A stretch of 64,000 nt of DNA, from sequence record MT129654.1; one strand, written 5' to 3'. The stretch is from Escherichia phage MN04. Under the pieces are notes generated by a model. The model saw nothing but the letters and a program-made list of their open reading frames with translations, searched no databases and was not told the DNA's origin. Below, one piece after another: positions 708 to 62,153 of the stretch (position 1 is its first letter; each line of letters begins with the position of its first letter). Both the position numbers and the translations under genes were made by a program.

Positions 708-940
708 TGAATTGGCTAACTAATATACCTACATCGGCATTAGATATCGACCGTAAACAAGCCCGTAAGGAAATCGAGCAAAAAAATATTCAGGCAAAAG
801 CTCCTAAGATTACGGCCAAGGCGCCGGAAATAAAAAGCTCTTATGAAACAAAAAGCTCTTATACTTCATATACCCAATCCCTAACAGGCCAAGCCGCTGA
901 CATTGCGGTGTTTGGCGTCCCACTCGGTGTGTTTAAGTAG
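686..940 (+). CDS. Hypothetical protein
   Basis: 84-aa ORF in six-frame track; start uncertain. Confidence 0.3.
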   Translation: MGTLGKIMNWLTNIPTSALDIDRKQARKEIEQKNIQAKAPKITAKAPEIKSSYETKSSYTSYTQSLTGQAADIAVFGVPLGVFK

Positions 941-968
941 TTTACACCTCCTCCCTTCATGTTATAAT
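940..968 (+). promoter_or_regulatory. T4-type early promoter (-35 GTTTAC, extended -10 TGTTATAAT)
   Basis: GTTTAC at 940-945, 17-nt spacer, TATAAT at 963-968; 25 nt upstream of the 993 ORF. Confidence 0.6.
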
Positions 969-992
969 GACCTCTAAATCACTGGAGGTCAT

Positions 993-1562
993 ATGAACAT
1001 CGAACAAAAATGTCTTTATCAAGACCGAATCAATTCCAAATTTTCAAAATCTGAACAAGCGTTGTTAGAGAAATGTCTGGATGCCAAAAAAGACCCTAAC
1101 TTCCATTACGACCTAGACAAACTGGTTCGTAAGCATGTCACTTCAGTGGTTCCGGTAGAGCTTTATCGTGGGATTACCACCAGAGAACTTGGGCAATTAG
1201 AGCTCCTTTCAGTAGGATGTCAATGGTCTCCTGGCCGGGTTACTTCTTTTAGTACACAATACTCTCAGGCTTGCCAGTTCGCAGGGTCATGGGAATATGG
1301 AACCAAAACCATTTTAAGTCTCAGGAATGCACCCTTCATTTTTGACTACTACAATCATGCTATCGACCTTGTTCTTGCAGGGAGTGCGGACGAACTTGAA
1401 ATAGATGAAACCCGTATTGACCTCTATGATATGGTCGAAACCGAATGTGAGTTCATGGTCTCTAGCCTATCACGATTTGAGATTGTTGAAATCGAAACTA
1501 TCAAAAGAGACCCATACGACATCGAGTACAAAATAATTCATTTAAAAATGTTGGATTTTTAG
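993..1562 (+). CDS. modB: Mono-ADP-ribosyltransferase, ModA/ModB family (ModB position by synteny)
   Basis: 189 aa; ART triad pattern LYRGI ... TSFST ... ECEFMV (R / S-x-S / E-x-E); tandem with a second ART upstream of srd-dda as in T4. Confidence 0.55.
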   Translation: MNIEQKCLYQDRINSKFSKSEQALLEKCLDAKKDPNFHYDLDKLVRKHVTSVVPVELYRGITTRELGQLELLSVGCQWSPGRVTSFSTQYSQACQFAGSWEYGTKTILSLRNAPFIFDYYNHAIDLVLAGSADELEIDETRIDLYDMVETECEFMVSSLSRFEIVEIETIKRDPYDIEYKIIHLKMLDF

Positions 1563-4994: not shown

Positions 4995-5665
4995 AAGATA
5001 TAATTATTGACTTCGAAACCTTTGCCACTACCCAAAATGCAGCAGTTATCGACCTCGCCGTAATTGCTTATGACCCTAATCCAGAGGTAGTAGAATCGTT
5101 TGAAGAGCTTACTCAACGCGGTCTTCGTATTAAATTTGATTTGGCTTCTCAACGCGATAAACGTCTGTTCTCTAAAAGCACATTGCAGTGGTGGAAAGAA
5201 CAAGGACCTGAAGCACGTAAAAACCTGGCTCCGTCCGAAATTGATGTGAGTACTTCTATCGGCATTGGTAATTTCCTGGAATACTGCCGTAAAAACGAAG
5301 TGGACCAATGGAAATCCCAGATGTGGTGCCGCGGAATGTCCTTTGACTTTCCGATCTTAGTCGACCTTATTCGTGATGCTTATCGTTCTGAAGGTGTTCC
5401 TGAGAACGAAATCGATACAACTAAGTTGGAACCGGTTAAATTCTGGAACCAACGTGATATCCGCACGGCCATTGAAGCCTATTCACTGACGCGTGGATTA
5501 AGCATGTGCCCTCTGCCTAACGGAACATTGAATGGCTTTGTAGCCCATGACTCTATCCATGACTGTGCTAAGGATATCTTGATGCTGAAATATGCCCAAC
5601 GATATGCTTTAAACCTGGAAGATGTTCCTGAGAATCCAGACCCATTAAGTGTAAAAAATCGATAA
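4991..5665 (+). CDS. dexA: Exonuclease A (DnaQ-like 3'-5' exonuclease)
   Basis: 224 aa; N-terminal MKDIIIDFETFATT exo motif I (D-x-E); size and position match T4 DexA. Confidence 0.85.
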   Translation: MKDIIIDFETFATTQNAAVIDLAVIAYDPNPEVVESFEELTQRGLRIKFDLASQRDKRLFSKSTLQWWKEQGPEARKNLAPSEIDVSTSIGIGNFLEYCRKNEVDQWKSQMWCRGMSFDFPILVDLIRDAYRSEGVPENEIDTTKLEPVKFWNQRDIRTAIEAYSLTRGLSMCPLPNGTLNGFVAHDSIHDCAKDILMLKYAQRYALNLEDVPENPDPLSVKNR

Positions 5666-5669
5666 AAGT

Positions 5670-5698
5670 GTTTACTTCTCCTCATGACATGATATTAT
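5670..5698 (+). promoter_or_regulatory. T4-type early promoter embedded in an 11-bp inverted repeat
   Basis: GTTTAC 5670-5675, TATTAT 5693-5698; arms ttctcctcatg (5676-5686) and catgaggagaa (5711-5721) bracket the -10 and the SD. Confidence 0.6.
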
Positions 5699-5725
5699 CT
5701 ACCCTATCAACATGAGGAGAACAAA

Positions 5726-6229
5726 ATGAAAATTTATCGAGTTGAGTCATCGTTCAGTATCTTAGATGATGGAAACGCTATCACAATACGACGAGACCTC
5801 TGTACTCAAATGACTCCGTATAGAAGTACAATGGACTCATGGAGTGAAGGCTGGTTATTGGAAGTAGGTTTCGACAGACCCAATTTTAAGCATCGTCATA
5901 CCATCAATAAAAATATTCCACTACCAAGTCAAGATAAGTTGCTGGTAGAAAATTCTAATAAAACCATTAGAACTAAGTGGAAACGGCCTGATTATGAAGA
6001 CTGTGATGATTATATTCCAGGTTGGTTTGTTAACCTCTACCATTTTGCTTTTGCCAGTGAGTATGATATGATGCGCTGGTTCACTCGTGAAGAGCGTAAA
6101 GAATTATCTTCTAAAGGATTCTATCTTGCCGTTTACGAAATACCTGAAGATGAGGTAGTCATTGGTGACCGCCAAGTAATGTTCCGCAAGTCCCATGCTG
6201 AACTCGTAGATTTTATTGAAATGAGATAA
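5726..6229 (+). CDS. Hypothetical early protein (MotB position by synteny)
   Basis: 167 aa, similar size to T4 MotB (162 aa); position dexA -> motB; no motif evidence. Confidence 0.4.
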   Translation: MKIYRVESSFSILDDGNAITIRRDLCTQMTPYRSTMDSWSEGWLLEVGFDRPNFKHRHTINKNIPLPSQDKLLVENSNKTIRTKWKRPDYEDCDDYIPGWFVNLYHFAFASEYDMMRWFTREERKELSSKGFYLAVYEIPEDEVVIGDRQVMFRKSHAELVDFIEMR

Positions 6230-6785: not shown

Positions 6786-6814
6786 GTTTACTTTATCGAG
6801 AGCCATGTTATAAT
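6786..6814 (+). promoter_or_regulatory. T4-type early promoter with palindrome across the -10
   Basis: GTTTAC 6786-6791, TATAAT 6809-6814 centred in agagccatgttataatggctct. Confidence 0.6.
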
Positions 6815-6856
6815 GGCTCTTATGGATTATAATCCTTTAACCAAGAGAGAAAAATT

Positions 6857-16081: not shown

Positions 16082-16110
16082 GTATACATCTCCATTAGAC
16101 ATGATATTAT
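16082..16110 (+). promoter_or_regulatory. Early promoter variant (GTATAC -35) embedded in an 11-bp inverted repeat
   Basis: GTATAC 16082-16087, TATTAT 16105-16110; arms atctccattag (16088-16098) / ctaatggagat (16122-16132). Confidence 0.5.
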
Positions 16111-16130
16111 AGACCTATCAACTAATGGAG

Positions 16131-16247
16131 ATGATTATGAAAAACTTACTTAAAGCAATTTGGAACATGTTTGTGTTATTGGTTGTATTGAGCATTTTCC
16201 CAATAGTTTTTATGATTGACCATGTACGTGTATTCTTTAACTTCTGA
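16131..16247 (+). CDS. Hypothetical small hydrophobic peptide
   Basis: 38-aa ORF (MIMKNLLKAIWNMFVLLVVLSIFPIVFMIDH...), predicted single TM helix. Confidence 0.3.
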   Translation: MIMKNLLKAIWNMFVLLVVLSIFPIVFMIDHVRVFFNF

Positions 16248-16659: not shown

Positions 16660-17004
16660 ATGTCTAAAGTATTTTTTGGTAATTCTAAAGTTATGTTCTT
16701 TGAGCAACTCAGTCTTAAAGAGGCATTGGCAGCCTTCAATCAAGAACTGGTTACTGGGTTAGATTCAAAAACTATGGCAAGTGCGGATTTCGTTTTCGTT
16801 CAAGACCCGGATACAGGGTTTTATCGATTCATCAAATTCCGTATGAGCATGGACCCTGACTATCGTAGTGCTTACTATGTGAGTTACGAAAATGTTATCG
16901 AAGAATTACGTGATACCTATGGACGTGCTTTGAACCCACTGAATAAGGTTTATAATGCGTCCTTTTATACGAGCGGATTTATTTTAGAACAGCTACAAAA
17001 ATAG
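16660..17004 (+). CDS. Hypothetical protein
   Basis: 114-aa ORF preceded by ttgaggaaaatattatg. Confidence 0.4.
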   Translation: MSKVFFGNSKVMFFEQLSLKEALAAFNQELVTGLDSKTMASADFVFVQDPDTGFYRFIKFRMSMDPDYRSAYYVSYENVIEELRDTYGRALNPLNKVYNASFYTSGFILEQLQK

Positions 17005-17032
17005 TTTACAACCTCGAGAATCATGTTATAAT
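17004..17032 (+). promoter_or_regulatory. T4-type early promoter
   Basis: GTTTAC 17004-17009, TATAAT 17027-17032 within near-palindrome cgagaatcatgttataatggttctcg. Confidence 0.6.
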
Positions 17033-17081
17033 GGTTCTCGTTGACTGGATAACAAAACATTAATCTACTGAGGAAATTGAT

Positions 17082-19438: not shown

Positions 19439-19467
19439 GTTTACATCTGCTTTAAACATGATACTAT
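19439..19467 (+). promoter_or_regulatory. T4-type early promoter with overlapping MotA-box-like TGCTTTA (copy 1 of a 56-nt cassette)
   Basis: GTTTAC 19439-19444, tgcttta 19448-19454, TACTAT 19462-19467. Confidence 0.6.
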
Positions 19468-19515
19468 AGACCTATCAAATAAATGAACTGAAACAAACAA
19501 CCCGGAGATACAAAA

Positions 19516-19743
19516 ATGAAATTTAAAATCGAAAACGAAATCGTTAAAGCTAAAAATGCTCTGACTGCTAACAAACTGGTTGTAGATGGTATTGAATATG
19601 ATATCTGTGGAGTTCGTGAAGAAAAACCCGGTGTTCTGACTTTCTTCACAATGATTTTTAAATTTAAAGGTGACACAGAATTCAAACAGTTTGATTTTGC
19701 CCCTGAAGACGAAATCGAAGTTCGTAATCTGAACATTAAGTAA
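19516..19743 (+). CDS. Hypothetical protein flanked by duplicated promoter cassettes
   Basis: 75-aa ORF with SD ggag upstream. Confidence 0.45.
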   Translation: MKFKIENEIVKAKNALTANKLVVDGIEYDICGVREEKPGVLTFFTMIFKFKGDTEFKQFDFAPEDEIEVRNLNIK

Positions 19744-19782: not shown

Positions 19783-19811
19783 GTTTACTTCTGCTTTAAA
19801 CATGATACTAT
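19783..19811 (+). promoter_or_regulatory. T4-type early/middle promoter of motA (copy 2 of the 56-nt cassette)
   Basis: GTTTAC 19783-19788, tgcttta 19792-19798, TACTAT 19806-19811; 55/56 nt identical to 19439-19494. Confidence 0.6.
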
Positions 19812-19848
19812 AGACCTATCAAATAAATGAACTGAAACGGAGATTAAA

Positions 19849-20484
19849 ATGTCTAAAATTACTTATATCATCAAAGCTTCTGAAGACGCCCTGAATGAAA
19901 AAACCGCTTCAATCTTAGTACATATCATCAAGCATAACTTCATCACTTCAGGCGAAGTCCGTGAAGCCCTGAGTGAACAATTTAGTGCAGCGGTAGTTAA
20001 CTCTAACATTGGTGTATTGATTAAGAAAGGATTCATCGAAAAATCTGGTGATGGACTGGTGGCTACGGGTGAAGCAATGGACCTAGTTCAAAAAGCTGCT
20101 GACCTGTTCGCTTCTGAAAATGCTCCAGAGATGTTGGAAAAACGTAAAACTCGCAGTTCACGTGGTGTTACTCCTGAAATGGTAGTATTGGCTGGTGAAG
20201 TTAAATCTTTGTTAGAAGACCGAATCGAGATTCGTGAAATCGCTGAAAACCGTAGCAATCTTGAAGTTCGATTCGCTAAACGTACCAACGGTATTCGTCA
20301 AATCGAAGTCCGTCGTGACGGAATGATGCGTATCTTCGGTTATAATATGACCGATAAAGAAAAACAAGTGTTTACTTCCTTGAATCTTGATGTTAAGATT
20401 AAGACTGGTGGTAAGAATACTTATATCGACTTCCAAAACGTATCATCTGAAGTTATCAAAACCGTAACCAACGCAATTATCTGA
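19849..20484 (+). CDS. motA: MotA middle-transcription activator
   Basis: 211 aa, same length as T4 MotA; N-terminus MSKITYIIKAS ... VNSNIGVLIKKG ... EKSGDGL matches T4 MotA as remembered. Confidence 0.9.
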   Translation: MSKITYIIKASEDALNEKTASILVHIIKHNFITSGEVREALSEQFSAAVVNSNIGVLIKKGFIEKSGDGLVATGEAMDLVQKAADLFASENAPEMLEKRKTRSSRGVTPEMVVLAGEVKSLLEDRIEIREIAENRSNLEVRFAKRTNGIRQIEVRRDGMMRIFGYNMTDKEKQVFTSLNLDVKIKTGGKNTYIDFQNVSSEVIKTVTNAII

Positions 20485-22162: not shown

Positions 22163-22191
22163 GTTTACAATCCATAAGGATATGTTATTAT
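22163..22191 (+). promoter_or_regulatory. T4-type early promoter of asiA
   Basis: GTTTAC 22163-22168, TATTAT 22186-22191. Confidence 0.6.
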
Positions 22192-22232
22192 AGCCTTATC
22201 AGATAATGTCGTACTGAATTGAAGAGAATATT

Positions 22233-24005: not shown

Positions 24006-27000
24006 TTATTTTAACAATGATTTAACTAAAGCTTTAAGTTCTTCAATCTCTGATTTCAATTCTGTTATTTCGGCAGTATGCTCATTGATTGCAGCTGTAT
24101 TTAAACCAATTACACCGTTATAGTTCAAACGAAGTAAAGCTTCACTATTAGGGTCACCTTCAACCAATTCAGGTAAAATAGCTTGAACTTCTTGGGCAAT
24201 TAAACCAGCATTAGGTTCCCATTTCTGATTACCTTCCTCATCTAGGCCTCGCTTCTGCATATAAGTGTAACCGTTAATTTTAGAAAGCTTCTGAGAAGCA
24301 TTTTCAAATTTAACAAGGTCTTTTTTAACGCGAATATCAGAACGAACATAAACATCACGGACATATGTAGAATAGGCATCACTTTGTTGGATTAAATGAC
24401 CAAAAGAAATAATAGCCCTTCCTGTTTCGGTCCACAAAGCACCGGTGGTATCCCAAAGACCTTGATGGATATGGTAAGAGCTAGACCAAGATGCAATATG
24501 CATACCATTGGCAACCATATTGATTCGGCCATCACCGCCGTGTGATAATCCTGTGTCATTATCACCAATAGCAATACTAGGAGAGCCTAATCCGTTAACA
24601 GTTCCAACACCAATGGCAGGAGTCTGGACTAAAGTCGGGGCGTAAAATAAACCGCTAGAGTGGAATTCGAAAATACCTACAGGACCGTCGCCACGCTCGG
24701 CATTACCTACTCGAATTATCGCTTGTCCCCATGCTTGTGGAGTACGACGCATGCCTAATTCAACAGAAGTAGTATAACCCTGACCACTAATTACAGATCG
24801 GCCTTTAATAATGGGATAATAACTGTCTTCACCCACACTACCAAACTCAAGGAAATAAGGTGCTTCTAAGCCCCATTGGTCACCCCATGCACCAGATTTA
24901 TGTGCAATCCAGTTGGAACCGTTCATATAAATACGGTCTCGGTTTACATTGAATACTGAAGCACCTTGTGGAGATAAAACAACCTCACCATTATGGGTGA
25001 TATTAATACCACCTTGGGATTGGAAGCTCCAGAAGGCTAAACCGTTATCAGCACCACCATTACCTACATACCAGTTATCAACACCACCTTTTTTACCCTT
25101 AACATAACCAGCTTCATCTGCCGGATAATCAATAACAATAGCGTCTGAATTGGTTTTAAGAGTTAAGCGGCCTGTCATTGTGTCCCCGCCTTTACCAACA
25201 CGAGTATTCACCGCTGCGTCAAGGTTAGTAGCACCGCTATACTTGTTCCAAATAGAACCTGCAATATTACCATCAGTATTCATGAAAGCTGTACCGGCAT
25301 ATAAGCGGTTCTGAGCCATGAAGTTACCTTCTTTGGTAAAGCGCCAATATTTTAATCCTGTAGCATCACCATCACCAAGCAAATCACCTTGAGCAACAAT
25401 TCGATATTCACTTGTAGCTCGGTCCATACCTTGAGTAACAGTTACGTTCGAATCAATATTTTTCTGCTTAGTAATAGGGTAAAATGCTTGAGTTGCAGCA
25501 TCGAGCGTTTGATATACCAGAGCTTTAGTCGTGTTCTGGTTGGCATAAGATGCACCGTTACTATTAGGGAATTCTAATGCACCATTACCCCTAAAATAAA
25601 CCTGGTCTGCTTCTAAGTTAGGGATTTTAACCCGACCGGTGTCTAACATAATACTTAATGGGCGTAATGGACCCAATCCGCCACTTTCACCAGCATTAAC
25701 ATTGGTTGGGATAATATGTAGCTGGTCTTCTGAATTTCGAAAAATAACACCATACTTATCATTCCAAATACGAAGACCACTAGCAGCGCGGACTTTAATT
25801 TCATTGGAAACATATAGATTGCGTTTTAAAGATGTATCTTGACTGACAGACAATCCTTCGACGATGTTCATCGTGCCGTTTAAATAAGATTCGACTTTAC
25901 CTGCCGTATTTCGTTGAATATAGTGCATCCAGCCGGTAGCATCAGATGTTTCCAATACGTTTTTACGAGAACCACCTACCGTATTAAAAGTGTCACCCCA
26001 ACCTTTGAGCTCTATATTATCAACTGAACTATATCCTGAGGTACTTCCTTTAAAAAGCACAGTGGAAGCGTTACCACGACCGTCAATATTAACCGAACCA
26101 CCACGGACTTCAACGTTACCAGGAGTAACCAACAACCCACCATCAGTGTTAACGTTTGTTACACCTTTACCACGGAAATAATGGTGGTATTTACCACTCT
26201 GATGATAACCTAAAAGAGTCTGCCCATCACCAAAGCCGTTTTTATCATTAGTAGTATTAACAATAACTAATGGATAGTTTTGAGCTGTAGGAAGAATTAA
26301 ATCAGAACCGTTGGTTGAATAACCCGCAACTAACTGTTTAAGGCTTGTAACTTCAGTCGGAGTTGTAAGTAAAGTATAAGCTCCATTATTAACTGTATGG
26401 AACTGGCCGTCTTGTTTCCATTTCAAACCTGTGTTATTGTCACCAAGAGCAATTGAAGCCGTCCCTAATTCAGAATATCCTTTAGGGCCACCTGGAAGAC
26501 CTACAGAAATAGAATGACCGGCTTTCAATCCACCTGCCCAGTTAAACGACAAAATATAAGTGTCTAAGCCATCTCCGGAATACCAGGCTATTCCGTCATT
26601 AACATTAACTTCGTGGAAAATACCTGCTCCTACAGCATTTCGCATAACACGGAGGTGGTTAATAGCCGTTTCGCTTTCTGCCAATGGAGTGTTATTTGAT
26701 AATGAAGATATATCGTAATCGCCGGCGGCTTTACCGTCGGTAATAACTTTATTAGTATAAATTATTGGAGATTTTACCGATGTTCCACCAGAAATAGATG
26801 GAGCATAAAATAAACCGTCACCGTTGAATGCAAAAATATTAGATGTTGAATTAGTGTAATCCTGAACACGAACATTTAAGATTTGCTTGGTATCCCCAGC
26901 ACGGTTTTGAGAATAAATTATGCCTCTTTCACGCGCATCAGCCAAATCCTGGAATCGAACGTGGGTAGTTCCTGCACCCCGTACAAGAACTTCACCGTTA

Positions 27001-37631: not shown

Positions 37632-37660
37632 GTTTACAAGGTCTATAGGCATGATACTAT
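37632..37660 (+). promoter_or_regulatory. T4-type early promoter
   Basis: GTTTAC 37632-37637, TACTAT 37655-37660, flanked by palindrome aggtctatag / ctatagacct. Confidence 0.6.
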
Positions 37661-37692
37661 AGACCTATCAACTAACGAGTGAGGAAAATAAA

Positions 37693-37922: not shown

Positions 37923-37952
37923 GTTTACCTAAGGCTATGGTAGTGATACTAT
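37923..37952 (+). promoter_or_regulatory. T4-type early promoter
   Basis: GTTTAC 37923-37928, TACTAT 37947-37952, palindrome aaggctat / atagcctt. Confidence 0.55.
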
Positions 37953-37978
37953 AGCCTTATCAATTTGAGGAGAATAAA

Positions 37979-44329: not shown

Positions 44330-44356
44330 GGAATGGGGCTTCGGCCCCTTATTGCT

Positions 44357-44770
44357 ATGAAAGAAATCGCAGATGAATTTAGCTTTATCAAGTACGTTAC
44401 ACTGGAGCTCCAAACAGATGCTACTATAGCCCCTATCACGGTTCCAAACAAACAAAATGTCATATATGCTATAGCGGTTGATGATATACTAGTCTACATC
44501 GGGAAGACTAAAAATCTTCGTAAGCGCATCAACTACTACCGAACAGCTATTAATCGTAAGGACCAAACGTCGGATTCGACCAAGTCCATTCTGATTCATG
44601 AAGCATTAATGGCTGGTAAAAAGGTAGAGTTCTATGCTAGACAGTGCTTTAATCTGTCGATGACTAACGAACTTGGAACTATGTCAGTTGAGACCATGTC
44701 TCTTGAAGAGCCAATGTTCATAAAGAAATTTAATCCACCTTGGAATACCCAACATAGGATAAAGCAATGA
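44357..44770 (+). CDS. denA: Endonuclease II (GIY-YIG family)
   Basis: ATG 44357 (MKEIADEF...); VIYAIAVDDILVYIGKTKNLRKRINYYRTAINRKD GIY-YIG core matching T4 EndoII as remembered. Confidence 0.85.
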   Translation: MKEIADEFSFIKYVTLELQTDATIAPITVPNKQNVIYAIAVDDILVYIGKTKNLRKRINYYRTAINRKDQTSDSTKSILIHEALMAGKKVEFYARQCFNLSMTNELGTMSVETMSLEEPMFIKKFNPPWNTQHRIKQ

Positions 44771-45915
44771 TTGAATTATATGATAACTTGATGACTTTGG
44801 TTAAAAACTCGACTAAATCTAAGTTCTTCTTTAAAGACTTCCAGAGTGCTCTAGGAGTCAACTATCGCATCTTTAGTTATAACTATGCATCGTACAGCGA
44901 TTGGTTGGAAGACGGCGCGCTAGAGTGCCGAGGCATTATGTTTGAAATGGACGAGAACGGTCCTGTACGTATCGCTGCTCGTCCTATGCAAAAGTTCTTT
45001 AATCTCGATGAAAATCCATTGACTATTGGTTTGGATTTATCACAAGAAAATATCGACCTCGTAATGGCTAAGGAAGATGGTTCCTTGATTTCTACTTTCA
45101 TGGACAGACAATATCTTTCTGTTAAATCTAAAGGCTCTATCCATTCGTCGATGGTACATGATTCTTTACGTTTCCTTCGACTCCCTGAAAACGAGGCCTT
45201 CGCTGCTCGTTTAGAAGAAATTACTAAAGCAGGCTATACATGTAACCTCGAGTATGTTTCGCCTACTAACCGTATTGTGCTGGCTTACCAAGAAACAAAC
45301 CTTATCTTACTGAACGTTCGTAATAACGAAACGGGTGAGTATATCCCTTACGCTGAACTGTTTAAAGATGGCGCTCTGCGTAAGCATTTGGTTAAAAGCT
45401 ATGAACTCGCCGAAGGTGATTTTGTTGACAATATCCGTAAACAAGAGGGTATTGAAGGCTTTATCTTTGTACTTAAAGATGGCACGTTCTTTAAACTCAA
45501 AACCGCTTGGTATAGCGCACTGCATCATACCAAAGATTCCATTAACAATAACGAACGTTTATTTGAAGTTGTAGTGGCTGGTGGAACCGATGACCTCCGA
45601 GGTTTGTTCAGCACTGATTCATTTGCTATCGAGAAAATCAATGCATTTGAACGTACCCATTTAGACTACTTAGAACAGTCCTTGGCTTTGTTAGAAGCAG
45701 CATATTCCCAGCTCAAAGGCCGCGACCGTAAAGACTACGCTGTTACTGGTCAGTTAATCCTCAAAGACTTCCCAGGGCTGTTCTCTATTCTTATGCAGGC
45801 GTACGTAGACGGTATTAATTATGATACGGTCGTGGACCAGATTAACTCTGTGTTCTTGAAAAATCATAAGGCCCAAATCCCTGAAAAATATTTGAAAGAA
45901 ATTGTAATAGAGTAG
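44767..45915 (+). CDS. rnlA: RNA ligase 1
   Basis: 382 aa; YRIFSYNYASYSDW, adenylation site KEDGSL; matches T4 gp63 as remembered. Confidence 0.9.
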   Translation: MIELYDNLMTLVKNSTKSKFFFKDFQSALGVNYRIFSYNYASYSDWLEDGALECRGIMFEMDENGPVRIAARPMQKFFNLDENPLTIGLDLSQENIDLVMAKEDGSLISTFMDRQYLSVKSKGSIHSSMVHDSLRFLRLPENEAFAARLEEITKAGYTCNLEYVSPTNRIVLAYQETNLILLNVRNNETGEYIPYAELFKDGALRKHLVKSYELAEGDFVDNIRKQEGIEGFIFVLKDGTFFKLKTAWYSALHHTKDSINNNERLFEVVVAGGTDDLRGLFSTDSFAIEKINAFERTHLDYLEQSLALLEAAYSQLKGRDRKDYAVTGQLILKDFPGLFSILMQAYVDGINYDTVVDQINSVFLKNHKAQIPEKYLKEIVIE

Positions 45916-45943
45916 TTTACATCTCCTCATGATGTGTTAGTAT
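45915..45943 (+). promoter_or_regulatory. T4-type early promoter embedded in a 9-bp inverted repeat
   Basis: GTTTAC 45915-45920, TAGTAT 45938-45943; arms tctcctcat (45922-45930) / atgaggaga (45958-45966). Confidence 0.55.
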
Positions 45944-45973
45944 AGACTTACCAACTAATGAGGAGAAAACAAA

Positions 45974-46474
45974 ATGAATATGCAAATGATTACCAACGAA
46001 ATGGTTGTTAAAGCTTTTGGTGACTCTACTGACGGTATCCAAGTTTTTAAAGGTTCTCGTGCAGTAGGTTATCTAACCGATCTTCGTGTTACTTTAGCTA
46101 AAAATGCTAAAAAGAAAATTAAGCAAAAAGAATACTCTACCCGTTATGCAGAAGAAAAGCGTGAAGCCATGCCCGAAGCTGTTAACTCTATGGTTGAGTT
46201 TCTCCAAAACAACCTTTCTAAGTATGATGCTGAGGTATTCATTAATATTAGCCAACCTAATGTCAAAATCGCAGGAATCACTTTCTATTTGATTTGCGAC
46301 CCATTAAGCGATAAGTTTAATCGCCTTGGCATTTCGAGCCCTTACCATACCGCTGAAGAATTGTGCGTGATGTTCGAAACGTATAAAATCCAGTGTGAAA
46401 ACCCTAAAACGGTTCTTATCAACTCCCTGTCACGTGATGACATCATCGAGATTATTACTAAATGTCTAAATTAA
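45974..46474 (+). CDS. Hypothetical protein (Alc position by synteny; T4 Alc is 167 aa)
   Basis: 166-aa ORF immediately downstream of rnlA. Confidence 0.45.
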   Translation: MNMQMITNEMVVKAFGDSTDGIQVFKGSRAVGYLTDLRVTLAKNAKKKIKQKEYSTRYAEEKREAMPEAVNSMVEFLQNNLSKYDAEVFINISQPNVKIAGITFYLICDPLSDKFNRLGISSPYHTAEELCVMFETYKIQCENPKTVLINSLSRDDIIEIITKCLN

Positions 46475-47205: not shown

Positions 47206-47235
47206 GTTTACAAACTCTTGGGAGCAGAGTATAAT
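47206..47235 (+). promoter_or_regulatory. T4-type early promoter
   Basis: GTTTAC 47206-47211, 18-nt spacer, TATAAT 47230-47235. Confidence 0.55.
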
Positions 47236-47269
47236 GCTCCTACGGATTATAAAAATTGAGGAAATTATT

Positions 47270-49646: not shown

Positions 49647-49676
49647 GTTTACATCATGGTAGGACTGTGGTATAGT
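49647..49676 (+). promoter_or_regulatory. T4-type early promoter
   Basis: GTTTAC 49647-49652, TATAGT 49671-49676, palindrome ggtaggact / agtcctacc. Confidence 0.55.
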
Positions 49677-49706
49677 AGTCCTACCGAAACAAATGAGGAA
49701 ATCGAA

Positions 49707-53321: not shown

Positions 53322-53350
53322 TTTTACTTTGGTACAGGTTGTGTTATTAT
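53322..53350 (+). promoter_or_regulatory. T4-type early promoter with palindrome across the -10
   Basis: TTTTAC 53322-53327, TATTAT 53345-53350 inside ggtacaggt ... acctgtacc. Confidence 0.5.
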
Positions 53351-53391
53351 AGACCTGTACCAAATAATACGAAAACAAACTGGAGAATAAA

Positions 53392-59681: not shown

Positions 59682-61805
59682 ATGGAAAATTTAAACGAAG
59701 TTTTTGATAGTGATTCCGCTAAAAACTATCCAGTAACAAATCTTAAGCCGGGCTCCGGTATCCCACAGATTTTCTCTATCCAAGCACCAGGTAACGATAA
59801 CCTGGTTGCTCGTATGGTATCTTATGCGTCTCAAGGAGACGCTATTAAAATGGTTAAGCCAGGCGACAAATATGTCCATGTTATTTTAATGAGTTTGTCG
59901 AGCAAGGGTGCTCCAGCCGAACTCAAAGGTGGTCTTGGTTCCGACCCACTTGGTGCATTGAATACTATTTTTGATACGATATACGAACAAGTAAATAAAC
60001 TTAAAATGGATGCGGTTTTGTTCCGTTTCCCTACCAAGAAAATGAAAGGTAAGGGCCCTACTGTTCAGCGTGTATTAGCTCGTTTGGCGATGGCACGTAC
60101 CGGTGGTAAGTTTAAAGTTGTCGATGATATGTTCCAGTTTAGTGGTAAACATACATACGTTCTTTTAGCACGTCGTGGCACTAATATCGAAGATATCAAG
60201 GGTATGCCTGAAATTGATGCGGACCTTTATACCAAGGTTGAGTCTAAAGTCGGTGAAGTTTATGTTTCTAAGAAAACCGGCCAGGCCGTAAGTAAGGTCG
60301 AAGCCGTAGCGGCATCTATTGCACAGGTTGAAGAGAAACGTACCGATAAGGCTGTTATCTCTCGTACTAAAATTTCCCGTCGTATGGCTGCAGCAGCGCA
60401 GTATTCTACTGCCGAACCTGAAACTTTATCACCTAAAGAATTGCAGGTTTATAACGAGTTTGAAGCTTCTGTCCCTGTTCACTCGGCCGAAGGCCCTGAG
60501 AACGAAGGTATTGAGCAGATTAGTCAGAACTTTAAAAAAGGTGCTATTACTAAAATGCGTCAGGCCTCTCAGTTTAAATCTAAGAGTGAGGACCTTGCCA
60601 ACTTTAGATACACCATTGCTCTCACGCACGCTTTAATGACTGATAGTAAATTTAAACTAAATTATGCTAATAGAGATAAACAAGGGTTTGAAATTTACTC
60701 TAATAATATGGCATTTTTTAATACGGAAGTCGATAGACTTTTAAGTGGCCTTTCTCAAATCAATACTACCAATAGTCTGGATATTATTAAGAGAATTGTT
60801 AATAACCTGAGTGCCCGTTTTCAGGGGTCTCCTTCAGAGAAAGCATCCCGAATTGCTTTCGCTATGGAAGCCGTTTATAAACTGATTAACGATTCTATTA
60901 GCGATGCATATGCTTATTCAGGCGAGCTCATTAAACCTAAGGGCTTGACCAAAGACGAAAGTAATGCCATTATTGAATATTGTGCGGCTGAATATGCTCC
61001 TATGAACTTATTCCTTTTAGGTAAACCTGAATCCGAAAACAATACAACAGCTATTAAATTGATTAAGGATTTAGACTCAGCATTTACCAAGGGTATTAAA
61101 CTTCCTAAGGGTACTATTTTGTATCGTGGTCAGGATTTACCATACAAAATTCTGCGCCATAATATTGATAACAAAACATTTTACTTTAAGAACTTTGTGT
61201 CCGCTTCATTAAAGCCTAATATCTTTGGCGAATTTGGTAAAAATTATATGGCCCTCGACAACCAAGCAGTTTTTGTTGGCGATGAAGGTTCTTTATCCTC
61301 CGCTGATGAGTTGTTTAAATTAGCCAGTGGTAGTTCATCTGATGTAGGCGAAGTTGATGATGAAGAGGTAGAATGGGAAGAAGACGAGTTCGGTAATCCA
61401 ATTGCACCTGAAGGCCCTGCAGACAGGATTGCTGAAATCGGTATGGTTATTCGAGGTGCTGAAGCAGTTAAAGTTATCGCTCCTGGTGACCTTACAGAAT
61501 ATTCCGAAGAAGCAGAAATTATCCTTCCGCGAGGATTATTGTTGAAGGTTGATAAAGTAGCGGCTTTTGCTATGAATGATAGAGTATCTCACAAATACCT
61601 TATGGAAGCTACAGTGACATCTCCTTCAGAACTCAGTGGGTCCGTTTACGATGGTGACCATCTGATGGAAACCGGTGAAGTTAAATTGATGAATGGGTTT
61701 AAAGAATTCCTAGTTTCAGAATCTGTTTCAGAAAGTAATGAGGCTATGGAAATCCTTGCTGCATCTTTGGACATCTCTTCTTTACCAAATAAATTCAAAA
61801 TGTAG
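59682..61805 (+). CDS. Alt-type ADP-ribosyltransferase, copy 2 (tandem paralog)
   Basis: 707 aa; N-terminal ~230 aa near-collinear with copy 1; C-terminal ILYRGQ ... FVSASL ... EAEIILPRG. Confidence 0.75.
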   Translation: MENLNEVFDSDSAKNYPVTNLKPGSGIPQIFSIQAPGNDNLVARMVSYASQGDAIKMVKPGDKYVHVILMSLSSKGAPAELKGGLGSDPLGALNTIFDTIYEQVNKLKMDAVLFRFPTKKMKGKGPTVQRVLARLAMARTGGKFKVVDDMFQFSGKHTYVLLARRGTNIEDIKGMPEIDADLYTKVESKVGEVYVSKKTGQAVSKVEAVAASIAQVEEKRTDKAVISRTKISRRMAAAAQYSTAEPETLSPKELQVYNEFEASVPVHSAEGPENEGIEQISQNFKKGAITKMRQASQFKSKSEDLANFRYTIALTHALMTDSKFKLNYANRDKQGFEIYSNNMAFFNTEVDRLLSGLSQINTTNSLDIIKRIVNNLSARFQGSPSEKASRIAFAMEAVYKLINDSISDAYAYSGELIKPKGLTKDESNAIIEYCAAEYAPMNLFLLGKPESENNTTAIKLIKDLDSAFTKGIKLPKGTILYRGQDLPYKILRHNIDNKTFYFKNFVSASLKPNIFGEFGKNYMALDNQAVFVGDEGSLSSADELFKLASGSSSDVGEVDDEEVEWEEDEFGNPIAPEGPADRIAEIGMVIRGAEAVKVIAPGDLTEYSEEAEIILPRGLLLKVDKVAAFAMNDRVSHKYLMEATVTSPSELSGSVYDGDHLMETGEVKLMNGFKEFLVSESVSESNEAMEILAASLDISSLPNKFKM

Positions 61806-61834
61806 TTTACAACACCACAAGGATGTGGTACTAT
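61805..61834 (+). promoter_or_regulatory. T4-type early promoter
   Basis: GTTTAC 61805-61810, TACTAT 61829-61834, hairpin ccacaaggatgtgg in spacer. Confidence 0.55.
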
Positions 61835-61862
61835 TACCTTACACAAACATGAGGAGAACATT

Positions 61863-62153
61863 ATGAAATCTACATTCCGCTTTAACGGTCAAGAACTGGT
61901 AGTTGAAAACGTTATCCCTGCTTCTGAAGAGTTCGACAGTGCAGTCGGTAATGAATTACGTCGAGTTTTCGGCGAAGACAAACAGTTCGACTTACGCCCG
62001 GTTGAAAATTTTTCACAACCTGAACAAACTGAAAATATCTTTAATGGTGTAGTAACCGGTCAGCTTGAATCTGAAGCTCCTATTTCTATTACGGTCTTTG
62101 TTAAAAAGCAGCCATTAATGACCGCAGCAGGTTTTATCTCGTTCCGTAAATAA
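61863..62153 (+). CDS. Hypothetical protein
   Basis: 96-aa ORF with SD gaggag, followed by terminator. Confidence 0.45.
   Translation: MKSTFRFNGQELVVENVIPASEEFDSAVGNELRRVFGEDKQFDLRPVENFSQPEQTENIFNGVVTGQLESEAPISITVFVKKQPLMTAAGFISFRK

What the first reader, a model, noticed from the sequence alone, without database searches (positions are those of the whole stretch)
45915..45976. Same promoter-plus-SD-sequestering inverted repeat upstream of the alc-position gene
Arms tctcctcat (45922-45930) and atgaggaga (45958-45966) bracket the -10 region and include the SD before ATG 45974. The arm sequence is almost identical to the one at 5676/5711, about 40 kb away, which suggests a reused regulatory cassette rather than a chance palindrome.
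Basis: seen in the sequence. Interest (0 to 1): 0.45.

Follow-up and report, generated by a model that had tools for sequence, protein, structure and literature searches.

The report
Early promoter hiding alc ribosome site
In this T4-like phage the early promoter of alc, the gene that shuts off host transcription, contains a sequence that pairs with the gene's own ribosome-binding site, so probably only RNA started at that promoter is translated and RNA reading through from upstream is silent; the design recurs, with different sequences, across T4 and at least six other phage genera.

Summary
TCTCCTCAT (45922-45930) and ATGAGGAGA (45958-45966) are perfect complements that bracket the -10 hexamer and contain the alc Shine-Dalgarno (SD) sequence. 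A twin sits upstream of motB.2 (5676-5721). Chance is excluded.

The promoter's own mRNA therefore cannot form the hairpin. Only read-through RNA from rnlA can.

Predicted SD accessibility is 0.00 in read-through RNA and 0.79 in own-promoter RNA. Thirteen of 19 alc leaders, with 11 different arm sequences across at least seven genera including T4, keep the same spacer-to-SD pairing. Their base pairs covary and wobbles are mostly G·U, which points to a sense-strand RNA structure. The alc, motB.2 and ndd.4 loci all carry it in both T4 and this phage.

Best reading: a translational switch set by where the transcript starts, confining these proteins to the immediate-early burst. This is the logic known for T4 e, soc, 49 and I-TevI, but built into an early sigma-70 promoter. 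It is also an undescribed variant of the promoter-early stem-loop (PeSL) cassettes.

"Reused cassette" is only partly supported. The function is inferred, not shown.

The parts
44767..45915 (+). rnlA (RNA ligase 1) coding sequence. Its stop codon TAG (45913-45915) overlaps the first base of the -35 element, and it is the source of read-through transcripts.
   Evidence: ORF. Annotated rnlA in JS10 and JS98. No terminator-like site between 45420 and 45974.
45915..45920 (+). -35 element GTTTAC of a T4-type early promoter
   Evidence: Conserved in 25 distinct alc leader sequences.
45922..45930 (+). 5' arm TCTCCTCAT (anti-SD), inside the 17-nt promoter spacer and therefore upstream of the predicted start site
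45935..45943 (+). Extended -10 element: TG (45935-45936), one base, then TAGTAT (45938-45943). It lies in the hairpin loop.
   Evidence: the scan flags TG before the second hexamer
45950..45950 (+). Predicted transcription start (A, 7 nt after the -10), giving a 24-nt unstructured leader. Inferred from sigma-70 geometry, not mapped.
   Evidence: Inference. One search uses this position; one search shows the RNA from 45950 leaves the SD unpaired.
45958..45966 (+). 3' arm ATGAGGAGA, containing the alc SD GAGGAG (45960-45965)
45974..46474 (+). alc (inhibitor of host transcription), 166 aa
5670..5728 (+). Twin cassette upstream of motB.2: -35 GTTTAC 5670-5675, 5' arm TTCTCCTCATG 5676-5686, -10 TATTAT 5693-5698, 3' arm CATGAGGAGAA 5711-5721, ATG 5726. 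Its SD context GGAGAACAAAA matches the RegB cleavage consensus GGAGRAYARAA.
   Evidence: (-26.8 kcal/mol, z -6.0)
16082..16139 (+). Third cassette of the same design, upstream of the ndd.4 ortholog (36-aa membrane peptide): -35-like GTATAC 16082-16087, 5' arm CATCTCCATTAG 16087-16098, -10 TATTAT 16105-16110, 3' arm CTAATGGAGATG 16122-16133, ATG 16137
   Evidence: (-22.5 kcal/mol, z -5.0)
940..995 (+). Fourth, weaker cassette upstream of modB: -35 940-945, -10 TATAAT 963-968, 5' arm ATGACCTC 967-974 (overlaps the -10 and ends at the predicted start), 3' arm GAGGTCAT 985-992 covering the SD, ATG 993. An alternative 5' arm ACCTCC lies at 946-951.

Best explanation
The element is an early (sigma-70 type) promoter with an anti-Shine-Dalgarno sequence written into its -35/-10 spacer.

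RNA polymerase that initiates here starts about 7 nt after the -10, near 45950. It makes an alc mRNA with a 24-nt unstructured leader and a free SD, which is translated at once.

RNA polymerase that arrives from upstream transcribes the whole promoter. These would be delayed-early or middle transcripts running through nrdB-denA-rnlA, and there is no terminator between rnlA and alc. The spacer sequence UCUCCUCAU then pairs with AUGAGGAGA and buries the SD in a hairpin of about -17 kcal/mol. On such RNAs alc is not translated, or only poorly.

The net effect is that Alc is made only while its own early promoter fires, in the first minutes of infection. The same would apply to MotB.2, Ndd.4 and probably ModB in this phage.

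What is shown: the complementarity, its statistical significance, its covariation across lineages, the sense-strand G·U bias, and the position of the arms relative to the promoter hexamers.

What is inferred: the start-site position, the existence of read-through RNA, and the effect on translation.
For: 1. Anatomy. The 5' arm lies in the spacer, the -10 in the loop and the SD in the 3' arm.

2. Folding. The 62-nt read-through segment folds at -17.6 kcal/mol (z -3.8). RNA starting at 45950 leaves the SD unpaired. Mean probability that the SD is unpaired is 0.00 in read-through RNA against 0.79 (alc), 0.61 (motB.2), 0.58 (ndd.4) and 0.56 (modB) in own-promoter RNA. Promoters without the feature give 0.31-0.73 in read-through RNA.

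3. Not a by-product of consensus. The matched-versus-mismatched permutation gave 0 of 20000.

4. Ortholog covariation at alc. Of 19 distinct leaders, 13 pair the spacer with the SD region, using 11 arm types. They come from Dhakavirus, Tequatrovirus (T4), Kanagawavirus, Winklervirus, Gelderlandvirus, Moonvirus, Jiaodavirus and three IMG/VR lineages of unknown genus. Matched duplexes are -15 to -23 kcal/mol against -6 to -11 for mismatched ones, ranking 0-2 of 18. There are 2-5 pair types at positions +2 to +5 and +7 to +11 after GTTTAC. One example is TCTCCTCAG/CTGAGGAGA in L048 against TCTCCTCAT/ATGAGGAGA here.

5. The same three genes (alc, motB.2, ndd.4) carry the design in both T4 and this phage, with different arms. 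In T4 it also occurs at regB, denV, nrdC.8 and alt.-3, and the T4-wide permutation gave 0 of 20000.

6. Internal wobbles are G·U on the sense strand 15 times and A·C 3 times. That fits an RNA helix on the coding strand, not a DNA cruciform.

7. Read-through is plausible. There is no terminator-like site after rnlA. In T4 the nearest listed middle promoters (PnrdB, PI-TevIII) lie upstream of denA-rnlA-alc (PMC2988021).

8. Precedent. In T4 e, soc, 49 and I-TevI, a promoter lies in the DNA encoding the 5' strand of a helix that buries the translation start, and lysozyme synthesis falls about 100-fold on long transcripts (PMC3014915).
Against: - There are no experimental data for this phage. The start site is inferred from promoter geometry only.
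- Six of 19 alc lineages lack the SD pairing. They have a hairpin confined to the spacer or bracketing the -10, or none, so the feature is dispensable or replaceable.
- The stem in this window is the weakest of the family (9 bp with a 27-nt loop, -15 to -18 kcal/mol). It may reduce translation rather than abolish it.
- Most early promoters in the window carry covarying hairpins that do not touch the SD. A function common to all of them, such as attenuation, processing or recombination, could be primary, with SD burial as a side effect at some loci.
- A benefit from limiting Alc to the first minutes has not been demonstrated.
Confidence: 0.62

Rival explanations
1. It is an ordinary promoter-early stem-loop (PeSL) cassette. 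The stem-loop would attenuate or terminate transcription coming from upstream, directly or by uncoupling translation and exposing the RNA to Rho. The conserved roughly 60-bp cassette would also serve as a recombination site that shuffles genes. SD burial would be incidental.
For: - PeSLs are described in T4-type phages as early promoters with stem-loops between -35 and -10 or overlapping the -10, with SD and ATG at the 3' end. One such stem-loop from the RB49/phi1 phage pair reduced lacZ expression as strongly as a strong terminator (PMC2839356; PMC4122927).
- At least 8 other promoters in this window have covarying stems around the -10 only.
- There are signs of cassette exchange. The T4 alc and alt.-3 cassettes are nearly identical. 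The 3' half of the L036 alc cassette equals this window's alt.-3 cassette. Some T4-like phages carry at alc the arms found at this window's 49647 promoter.
Against: - No U-tract follows the 3' arm (AAAACAAAAUG), the loop is 27 nt, and the terminator scan finds nothing here, so it is not an intrinsic terminator.
- A generic attenuator would not need its 3' arm to coincide with the SD in 11 independent arm types at the same gene.
- rnlA-alc synteny held in every annotated lineage fetched except the Acinetobacter phage, which has one small ORF between them, so this is not a plastic region.
- The PeSL papers do not mention translation or SD burial, and none of their five positional subclasses spans to the SD.
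Confidence: 0.17
2. The hairpin protects the GGAG of the SD in long transcripts from the phage endoribonuclease RegB and the decay that follows. It would stabilise polycistronic read-through mRNA rather than silence alc.
For: - RegB cuts single-stranded GGAG in the SDs of early mRNAs and is easily inhibited by secondary structure.
- T4 motB.2 is a documented RegB target (PMC1702504).
- The motB.2 SD here, GGAGAACAAAA, fits the consensus GGAGRAYARAA exactly.
Against: - The alc SD context here, GGAGAAAACAA, violates the consensus at positions 7 and 9, and C is never seen at position 9.
- Many alc lineages with the hairpin have no GGAG at all: T4 GAGGAC, L038 and KEN25 GAGGAU, CIP9 GGGGAU.
- Protection from RegB and translational silencing are not mutually exclusive.
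Confidence: 0.08
3. It is a translational coupling device. Ribosomes terminating at the rnlA stop codon melt the 5' arm and open the alc SD, so that on read-through RNA alc is translated in proportion to rnlA.
For: The 5' arm begins only 7 nt after the rnlA stop codon here. It begins about 9-13 nt after it in T4 and several other lineages.
Against: The -35 hexamer always separates the stop codon from the arm. From general knowledge of ribosome geometry, not tested here, a ribosome with the stop codon in its A site unwinds only about 5-7 nt beyond that codon. That would reach at most the first base pair here and none in T4.
Confidence: 0.06
4. It is a DNA-level element. A cruciform or a spacer-sequence effect would tune promoter strength or melting, and the match to the SD would be coincidental.
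For: The inverted repeat surrounds the -10, where DNA is melted. PeSL stems were reported to block sequencing polymerases on single-stranded DNA.
Against: - Sense-strand G·U outnumbers A·C 15 to 3 in the stems. A cruciform needs both strands to pair.
- The 3' arm tracks the SD, not a fixed distance from the -10 (loops of 14-21 nt by duplex prediction).
Confidence: 0.05
5. It is a chance palindrome produced by the promoter and SD consensus sequences.
For: The 3' arm is a common SD context.
Against:: 0 of 100 shuffles, 0 of 20000 permutations in this window and in T4, and covariation across 11 arm types.
Confidence: 0.01

Closest known systems
T4 helices that bury the translation start of genes e (lysozyme), soc, 49 and I-TevI, with a promoter inside the DNA encoding the 5' strand (reviewed in Uzan and Miller 2010, PMC3014915; also Aeh1 mobE)
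   Same: The SD and/or AUG is buried in a helix on long transcripts. A promoter is placed so that its own transcript lacks the 5' strand and is translated. The result is control of translation by transcript origin.
   Different: In those cases the internal promoter is a late (gp55) promoter, and the effect is to delay expression until late. Here the promoter is an early sigma-70 type, the 5' strand lies in its -35/-10 spacer, and the predicted effect is the opposite: expression confined to the immediate-early burst. I found no description of this for alc, motB.2 or ndd.4 in the papers I could read.
PeSL (promoter-early stem-loop) cassettes of T4-type phages (Arbiol et al. 2010, PMC2839356; Comeau et al. 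2014, PMC4122927)
   Same: An intergenic early promoter in a T4-type phage, preceded by a stop codon and an AT-rich stretch, containing a stem-loop and ending in SD plus ATG. Similar cassettes occur at several loci, with signs of exchange between them.
   Different: Described PeSL stems lie upstream of, within or just after the promoter hexamers (five subclasses) and are interpreted as terminators or attenuators and recombination sites. None is described as reaching the SD, and translation is never discussed. JS98 is mentioned only for PeSL-like sequences near gene 43. This stem has no U-tract and sits in a syntenic, non-plastic locus.
RegB endoribonuclease target sites in T4 early SD sequences (GGAGRAYARAA; Durand et al. 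2006, PMC1702504)
   Same: They act on the same SD sequences of early genes, require single-stranded RNA, and T4 motB.2 is a known target. Together with the hairpin this would give a short pulse of expression.
   Different: RegB is a trans-acting nuclease. The element here is a cis RNA structure, and the alc SD context does not fit the RegB consensus.

Membership tests
PeSL (promoter-early stem-loop) cassette | Sigma-70-like early promoter in an intergenic space of a T4-type phage, with an AT-rich stretch upstream of the -35 | tested here: met
   GTTTAC-17-TAGTAT with a TG extension. The upstream sequence gaaagaaattgtaatagagta is AT-rich. The phage is a Dhakavirus relative.
PeSL (promoter-early stem-loop) cassette | A sequence able to form a stable stem-loop inside the cassette, with SD and ATG at its 3' end | tested here: met
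   9-bp stem, -17.6 kcal/mol, z -3.8. SD and ATG at 45960-45976.
PeSL (promoter-early stem-loop) cassette | Stem-loop in one of the five described positions: upstream of the -35, overlapping the -35, between -35 and -10, overlapping the -10, or between the -10 and the start site | tested here: not met
   The 5' arm is in the spacer, but the 3' arm is the SD, beyond the predicted start site. Other promoters in the window do fit the 'overlapping -10' subclass.
PeSL (promoter-early stem-loop) cassette | Terminator or attenuator activity of the stem-loop | not testable with these tools
   No U-tract and no terminator-like call at this site, so it is not a canonical intrinsic terminator. In-vivo attenuation cannot be assessed.
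PeSL (promoter-early stem-loop) cassette | Association with indels or gene shuffling between close relatives | tested here: inconclusive
   rnlA-alc synteny held in every annotated lineage fetched except the Acinetobacter phage, which has one small ORF between them. Cassette halves are nonetheless shared between alc and alt.-3.
T4-type helix burying the translation start, with an internal promoter (e, soc, 49, I-TevI) | SD and/or start codon base-paired in transcripts that start upstream | tested here: met
   Prediction only: P(unpaired) of the SD is 0.00 in read-through RNA. Covariation in 11 arm types supports the helix.
T4-type helix burying the translation start, with an internal promoter (e, soc, 49, I-TevI) | A promoter positioned so that its own transcript lacks the 5' strand of the helix | tested here: met
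   The 5' arm (45922-45930) lies between the -35 and -10. The start site is inferred near 45950 and has not been mapped experimentally.
T4-type helix burying the translation start, with an internal promoter (e, soc, 49, I-TevI) | The internal promoter is a late (TATAAATA, gp55) promoter that delays expression | tested here: not met
   There is no TATAAATA near the site; the + strand has it only at 24926, 40810 and 51954. The promoter is the early sigma-70 type.
T4-type helix burying the translation start, with an internal promoter (e, soc, 49, I-TevI) | Demonstrated difference in translation between long and short transcripts | not testable with these tools
   Needs reporter, pulse-labelling or ribosome-profiling experiments.
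Intrinsic (Rho-independent) terminator | GC-rich stem with a short loop followed by a U-tract | tested here: not met
   27-nt loop and an A-rich tail. No hit at this position.
RegB/S1 cleavage site | Single-stranded GGAGRAYARAA | tested here: not met
   alc has GGAGAAAACAA: A at position 7, where Y is expected, and C at position 9, which is never seen. The twin at motB.2, GGAGAACAAAA, does meet it.
Any curated RNA family (Rfam 15) | Match to a covariance model | tested here: not met
   No hit at gathering threshold in the whole window, and none at E<=1 in 45800-46100.

The most novel reading that the evidence does not exclude
T-even phages may have a general, so far undescribed layer of temporal control. 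A defined set of immediate-early host-takeover genes carries an anti-SD sequence inside the spacer of its own early promoter. The set includes alc, motB.2 and ndd.4, plus regB, denV, nrdC.8 and alt.-3 in T4 and modB here.

These genes would then be translatable only from transcripts born at that promoter. They would be silent, and resistant to RegB, on the delayed-early and middle read-through RNAs that continue to cross them. That would help explain the abrupt decline of early-protein synthesis, which RegB and promoter shut-off do not fully account for.
Probability: 0.4. Interest if true: 0.65.

Novelty: new variant of a known kind. Interest (0 to 1): 0.52.

Why it matters
Alc is one of the first weapons a T4-type phage uses against its host. 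How its synthesis, and that of other immediate-early proteins, is confined to the first minutes is only partly understood.

The T4 reviews state that the shut-off of early promoters, and so the abrupt decline in early-protein synthesis, is not completely understood (PMC3014915, PMC2988021). A cis-encoded switch that reads transcript origin would be a simple, protein-free contribution.

It is directly testable in T4, where the same architecture exists at alc, motB.2, ndd.4, regB and denV.

It also revises how PeSL cassettes are read: at least one subclass looks translational rather than transcriptional. It gives annotators a sequence rule, spacer complementary to the SD, for flagging such genes. 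And it offers a compact design for synthetic biology: a promoter whose downstream gene ignores upstream transcription.

Tried and rejected
- **MAFFT alignment of the alc leaders.** It put the 3' arms out of register. I therefore did not use RNAalifold or the count of structure pairs. I used alignment-free matched-versus-mismatched duplex energies and a per-position pair table anchored on GTTTAC. The pair table comes from each sequence's own predicted duplex, so it is descriptive only.
- **Exact-arm scan of IMG/VR.** It found the cassette only in six JS98-like genomes, at the same two loci. Four other exact matches were unrelated sequence without the SD arm. This gave no support for a widely mobile cassette.
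- **Rfam.** No matches.
- **Literature.** The T4 genome review (PMC150520) is not held. Searches for a described alc, motB.2 or early-promoter SD hairpin found nothing beyond the reviews cited. The T4 omics paper has no usable data on alc translation.
- **Outer inverted repeat around the motB.2 cassette** (tcgataaa 5659-5666 / tttatcga 5733-5740). It is broken in one relative (L022), so I treated it as chance.
- **Late promoter near rnlA or alc.** None found.
- **Translational coupling by terminating ribosomes.** Considered and judged unlikely on geometry.
- **motB.2 orthologs.** Only two arm types were available (JS98-like and T4-like). They are supportive but too few for statistics.
Full report
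**What the window is.** The 2-kb region around the finding is 98% identical to coliphages JS10 and Esco_phi_B-01 and 97% identical to JS98. These are Dhakavirus, T4-type phages of the Tevenvirinae. The gene downstream of the finding is alc itself: PHROG 'inhibitor of host transcription', E 4e-71, annotated alc in JS10 and JS98, about 50% identical to T4 Alc. The gene upstream is rnlA (44767-45915).

**The observation.** It is correct to the base.
- The rnlA stop codon TAG ends at 45915, and its G is the first base of the -35 element GTTTAC (45915-45920).
- After one base comes TCTCCTCAT (45922-45930).
- TG lies at 45935-45936, and the -10 hexamer TAGTAT at 45938-45943.
- ATGAGGAGA lies at 45958-45966, containing the Shine-Dalgarno (SD) sequence GAGGAG.
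- ATG is at 45974.

At the other site the arms are TTCTCCTCATG (5676-5686) and CATGAGGAGAA (5711-5721), before ATG 5726. The gapped pattern occurs twice in the window and never in 100 shuffles.

The question was whether the promoter and SD consensus alone could produce such arms.
- I collected 21 T4-type early promoters on the + strand.
- For each I computed the duplex energy between its 17-18-nt spacer and every promoter's downstream leader (from the -10 to the ATG).
- This keeps all consensus features but breaks the site-specific match.
- Matched pairs average -11.0 kcal/mol and mismatched pairs -7.1. None of 20000 permutations reached the observed mean.
- For alc, only the motB.2 spacer pairs better with the leader than its own spacer does.

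The complementarity is therefore site-specific and not a by-product of consensus.

**The point that changes the interpretation.** The 5' arm lies between the -35 and -10 hexamers. Sigma-70 promoters start about 7 nt after the -10, which here is near A45950. The mRNA made from this promoter therefore begins after the 5' arm and cannot form the hairpin.
- Folding agrees. RNA from 45950 onward leaves the SD unpaired (-4.1 kcal/mol, z 0.1). The segment 45915-45976 folds into the arm helix at -17.6 kcal/mol (z -3.8).
- In partition-function terms, the mean probability that the SD is unpaired is 0.00 in an RNA that begins 80 nt upstream of the -35 and 0.79 in the promoter's own RNA.
- The same contrast holds at motB.2 (0.00 vs 0.61), ndd.4 (0.00 vs 0.58) and modB (0.00 vs 0.56).
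- Five promoters without the feature give 0.31-0.73 in read-through RNA.

The only RNAs that can form the hairpin are those that cross the promoter from rnlA. No terminator-like site lies between rnlA and alc. In T4 the nearest listed middle promoters, PnrdB and PI-TevIII, lie upstream of denA-rnlA-alc. Such read-through RNAs are therefore expected, although I could not observe them.

**A family within the window.**
- About half of the early promoters have a specific stem whose 5' arm lies in the spacer.
- In most of these the 3' arm lies immediately after, or overlaps, the -10. Examples are 53322 (12 bp), 37632 (10 bp), 49647 and 37923 (9 bp) and 6786 (8 bp).
- At alc, motB.2 and ndd.4 the spacer arm reaches the SD; at modB the SD instead pairs with an arm overlapping the -10. 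The cassettes are 45915 (alc), 5670 (motB.2), 16082 (the ndd.4 ortholog, a 36-aa membrane peptide; CATCTCCATTAG/CTAATGGAGATG, 12 bp, -22.5 kcal/mol, z -5.0) and, more weakly, 940 (modB).

**Comparative evidence at alc.** I fetched alc loci from IMG/VR and GenBank phages and T4 itself.
- Of 19 distinct leaders that keep the GTTTAC promoter, 13 pair the spacer with the SD region, using 11 different arm sequences.
- Examples: T4 AAGTCC(C)TCGTG / CATGAGGACTT; L038 ATCCTCATTTTGTTG / CAACAAAATGAGGAT (15 bp); Moon TCTCCATTTGGTT / AACCAAATGGAGA; Proteus phage ATCTCCGTTT / AAACGGAGAT; KEN25 ATCCTCGTCAG / CTGATGAGGAT; L049 AACCTCTCATTTT / AAAATGAGAGGTT; L048 TCTCCTCAG / CTGAGGAGA, which is one compensatory pair away from this window.
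- Matched duplexes are -15 to -23 kcal/mol against -6 to -11 for the same translation start region (TIR) paired with other lineages' spacers. They rank 0-2 of 18.
- Positions +2 to +5 and +7 to +11 after GTTTAC show two to five different pair types.
- Six lineages lack the feature. They have a hairpin confined to the spacer, one bracketing the -10, or none.

**Comparative evidence in T4.**
- The same permutation test on 34 early promoters is also significant (0 of 20000).
- Strong spacer-to-TIR helices occur at alc, alt.-3, denV, regB, nrdC.8 and motB.2. Another occurs at ndd.4 once its SD-proximal ATG is used.
- So alc, motB.2 and ndd.4 carry the design in both T4 and this phage, with different arms.

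**RNA or DNA.** Among 43 stems from the window, T4 and the alc orthologs, internal non-Watson-Crick pairs are G·T on the sense strand 15 times, A·C 3 times and other 3 times. Two of the G·T pairs are shared by the duplicated T4 alc and alt.-3 cassettes. A DNA cruciform would suffer A·C mismatches on the other strand, so the bias favours a helix in sense-strand RNA.

**Most likely mechanism.** The element looks like a translational switch set by transcript origin. RNA started at the gene's own early promoter is open and translated. RNA arriving from upstream is closed. This would confine Alc, and MotB.2, Ndd.4 and probably ModB, to the immediate-early burst.

For motB.2 the SD context GGAGAACAAAA also matches the RegB cleavage consensus GGAGRAYARAA, and T4 motB.2 is a known RegB target. 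The open form would then be inactivated by RegB, while the closed form is both untranslatable and RegB-resistant. That combination would give a sharp pulse of expression. The start-site position, the existence of read-through RNA and the translational effect are all inferences.

**Rivals.**
1. A generic PeSL attenuator or recombination cassette. The class exists and cassette exchange is visible, but there is no U-tract, and a generic attenuator would not need its 3' arm to track the SD across 11 arm types.
2. Protection from RegB. Many lineages lack GGAG at the alc SD, and the alc context here violates the consensus.
3. Coupling to rnlA termination. The -35 hexamer keeps the arm beyond the reach of a terminating ribosome.
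4. A DNA-level effect. The G·U bias argues against it.
5. Chance. Excluded.

**Comparison with what is known.** The logic is that of T4 e, soc, 49 and I-TevI, where a late promoter sits in the DNA encoding the 5' strand of a helix that buries the translation start. Here the promoter is early and the predicted temporal effect is reversed.

The cassette also resembles PeSLs. However, the two PeSL papers describe five stem positions, none reaching the SD. They never mention translation, and they mention JS98 only in passing.

I found no description of this arrangement for alc or the other genes in the literature I could read.

**On 'reuse'.**
- Identical arms at alc and motB.2 are partly forced, because both genes use the common SD context ATGAGGAGA, which alt.-3 also uses without a hairpin.
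- The two cassettes are 74% identical, 4th of 210 pairs.
- The exact arm occurs in IMG/VR phage DNA only at these two loci, in six JS98-like genomes.
- Gene conversion between cassettes is plausible, given the T4 alc/alt.-3 twins and the chimeric L036 cassette, but it is not shown for this pair.

**Verdict.** This is a real, selected and conserved RNA element. It is a new variant of two known kinds, of moderate interest, and readily testable in T4.

Noticed in passing
window 53322-53370, 49647-49690, 37923-37965, 37632-37675, 6786-6825, 17004-17045, 22163-22205, 47206-47250: At least eight other early promoters carry site-specific inverted repeats with the 5' arm in the spacer and the 3' arm just after or overlapping the -10. 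Examples are TTTGGTACAGGT/ACCTGTACCAAA (12 bp) and GGTAGGACT/AGTCCTACC. They do not touch the SD and have no U-tract. They fit the PeSL 'overlapping -10' subclass, and what they do in read-through RNA is unknown. T4 has the same feature at 30.7, ipI, ipII, mobD.2, dmd and motB.
   Followed up: partly
window 19439-19516 and 19783-19849: Two nearly identical early-promoter cassettes share an identical core of about 55 nt (TCTGCTTTAAACATGATACTATAGACCTATCAAATAAATGAACTGAAA). They lie 344 bp apart as direct repeats flanking a 75-aa ORF, the arrangement proposed to excise genes as PeSL mini-circles.
   Followed up: no
window 44335-44348: GGGGCTTCGGCCCC (UUCG tetraloop, 5 GC pairs) followed by a T-rich tail sits in the first codons of denA, immediately after the nrdB stop codon. 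It may be a partial terminator or stabiliser between nrdB and denA.
   Followed up: no
T4 (AF158101) 136336 and 123093; locus L036; window 61805-61865: The T4 alc and alt.-3 promoter cassettes are almost identical from the -35 to the SD. In one JS98-like genome (L036) the 3' half of the alc cassette (accttacacaaacatgaggagaacattatg) equals this window's alt.-3 cassette. This suggests recurrent gene conversion between these two loci.
   Followed up: partly
loci L045 and L050 (T4-like IMG/VR genomes) versus window 49647-49690: Some T4-like phages carry at the alc promoter the arms ATGGTAGGACT/AGTCCTACCAT, bracketing the -10. These are the same arms found in this window at the promoter 3.7 kb downstream of alc (49647). 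Either a cassette has moved or the two are convergent.
   Followed up: no
window 5717-5727: The motB.2 SD context GGAGAACAAAA is a perfect match to the RegB/S1 cleavage consensus GGAGRAYARAA. The alc context GGAGAAAACAA is not.
   Followed up: partly
JS10 record EU863409 alc (138409-138903); T4 record AF158101 ndd.4 (166636-166764): There are two likely start-codon misannotations in reference records. JS10 alc is annotated two codons downstream of the SD-proximal ATG. T4 ndd.4 is annotated five codons upstream of the ATG that has the SD and that aligns with the ortholog here.
   Followed up: partly
window 5659-5666 and 5733-5740: An outer inverted repeat, tcgataaa / tttatcga, encloses the whole motB.2 cassette, running from the dexA stop codon to the first codons of motB.2. 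It is broken in one relative (L022), so it is probably chance.
   Followed up: partly
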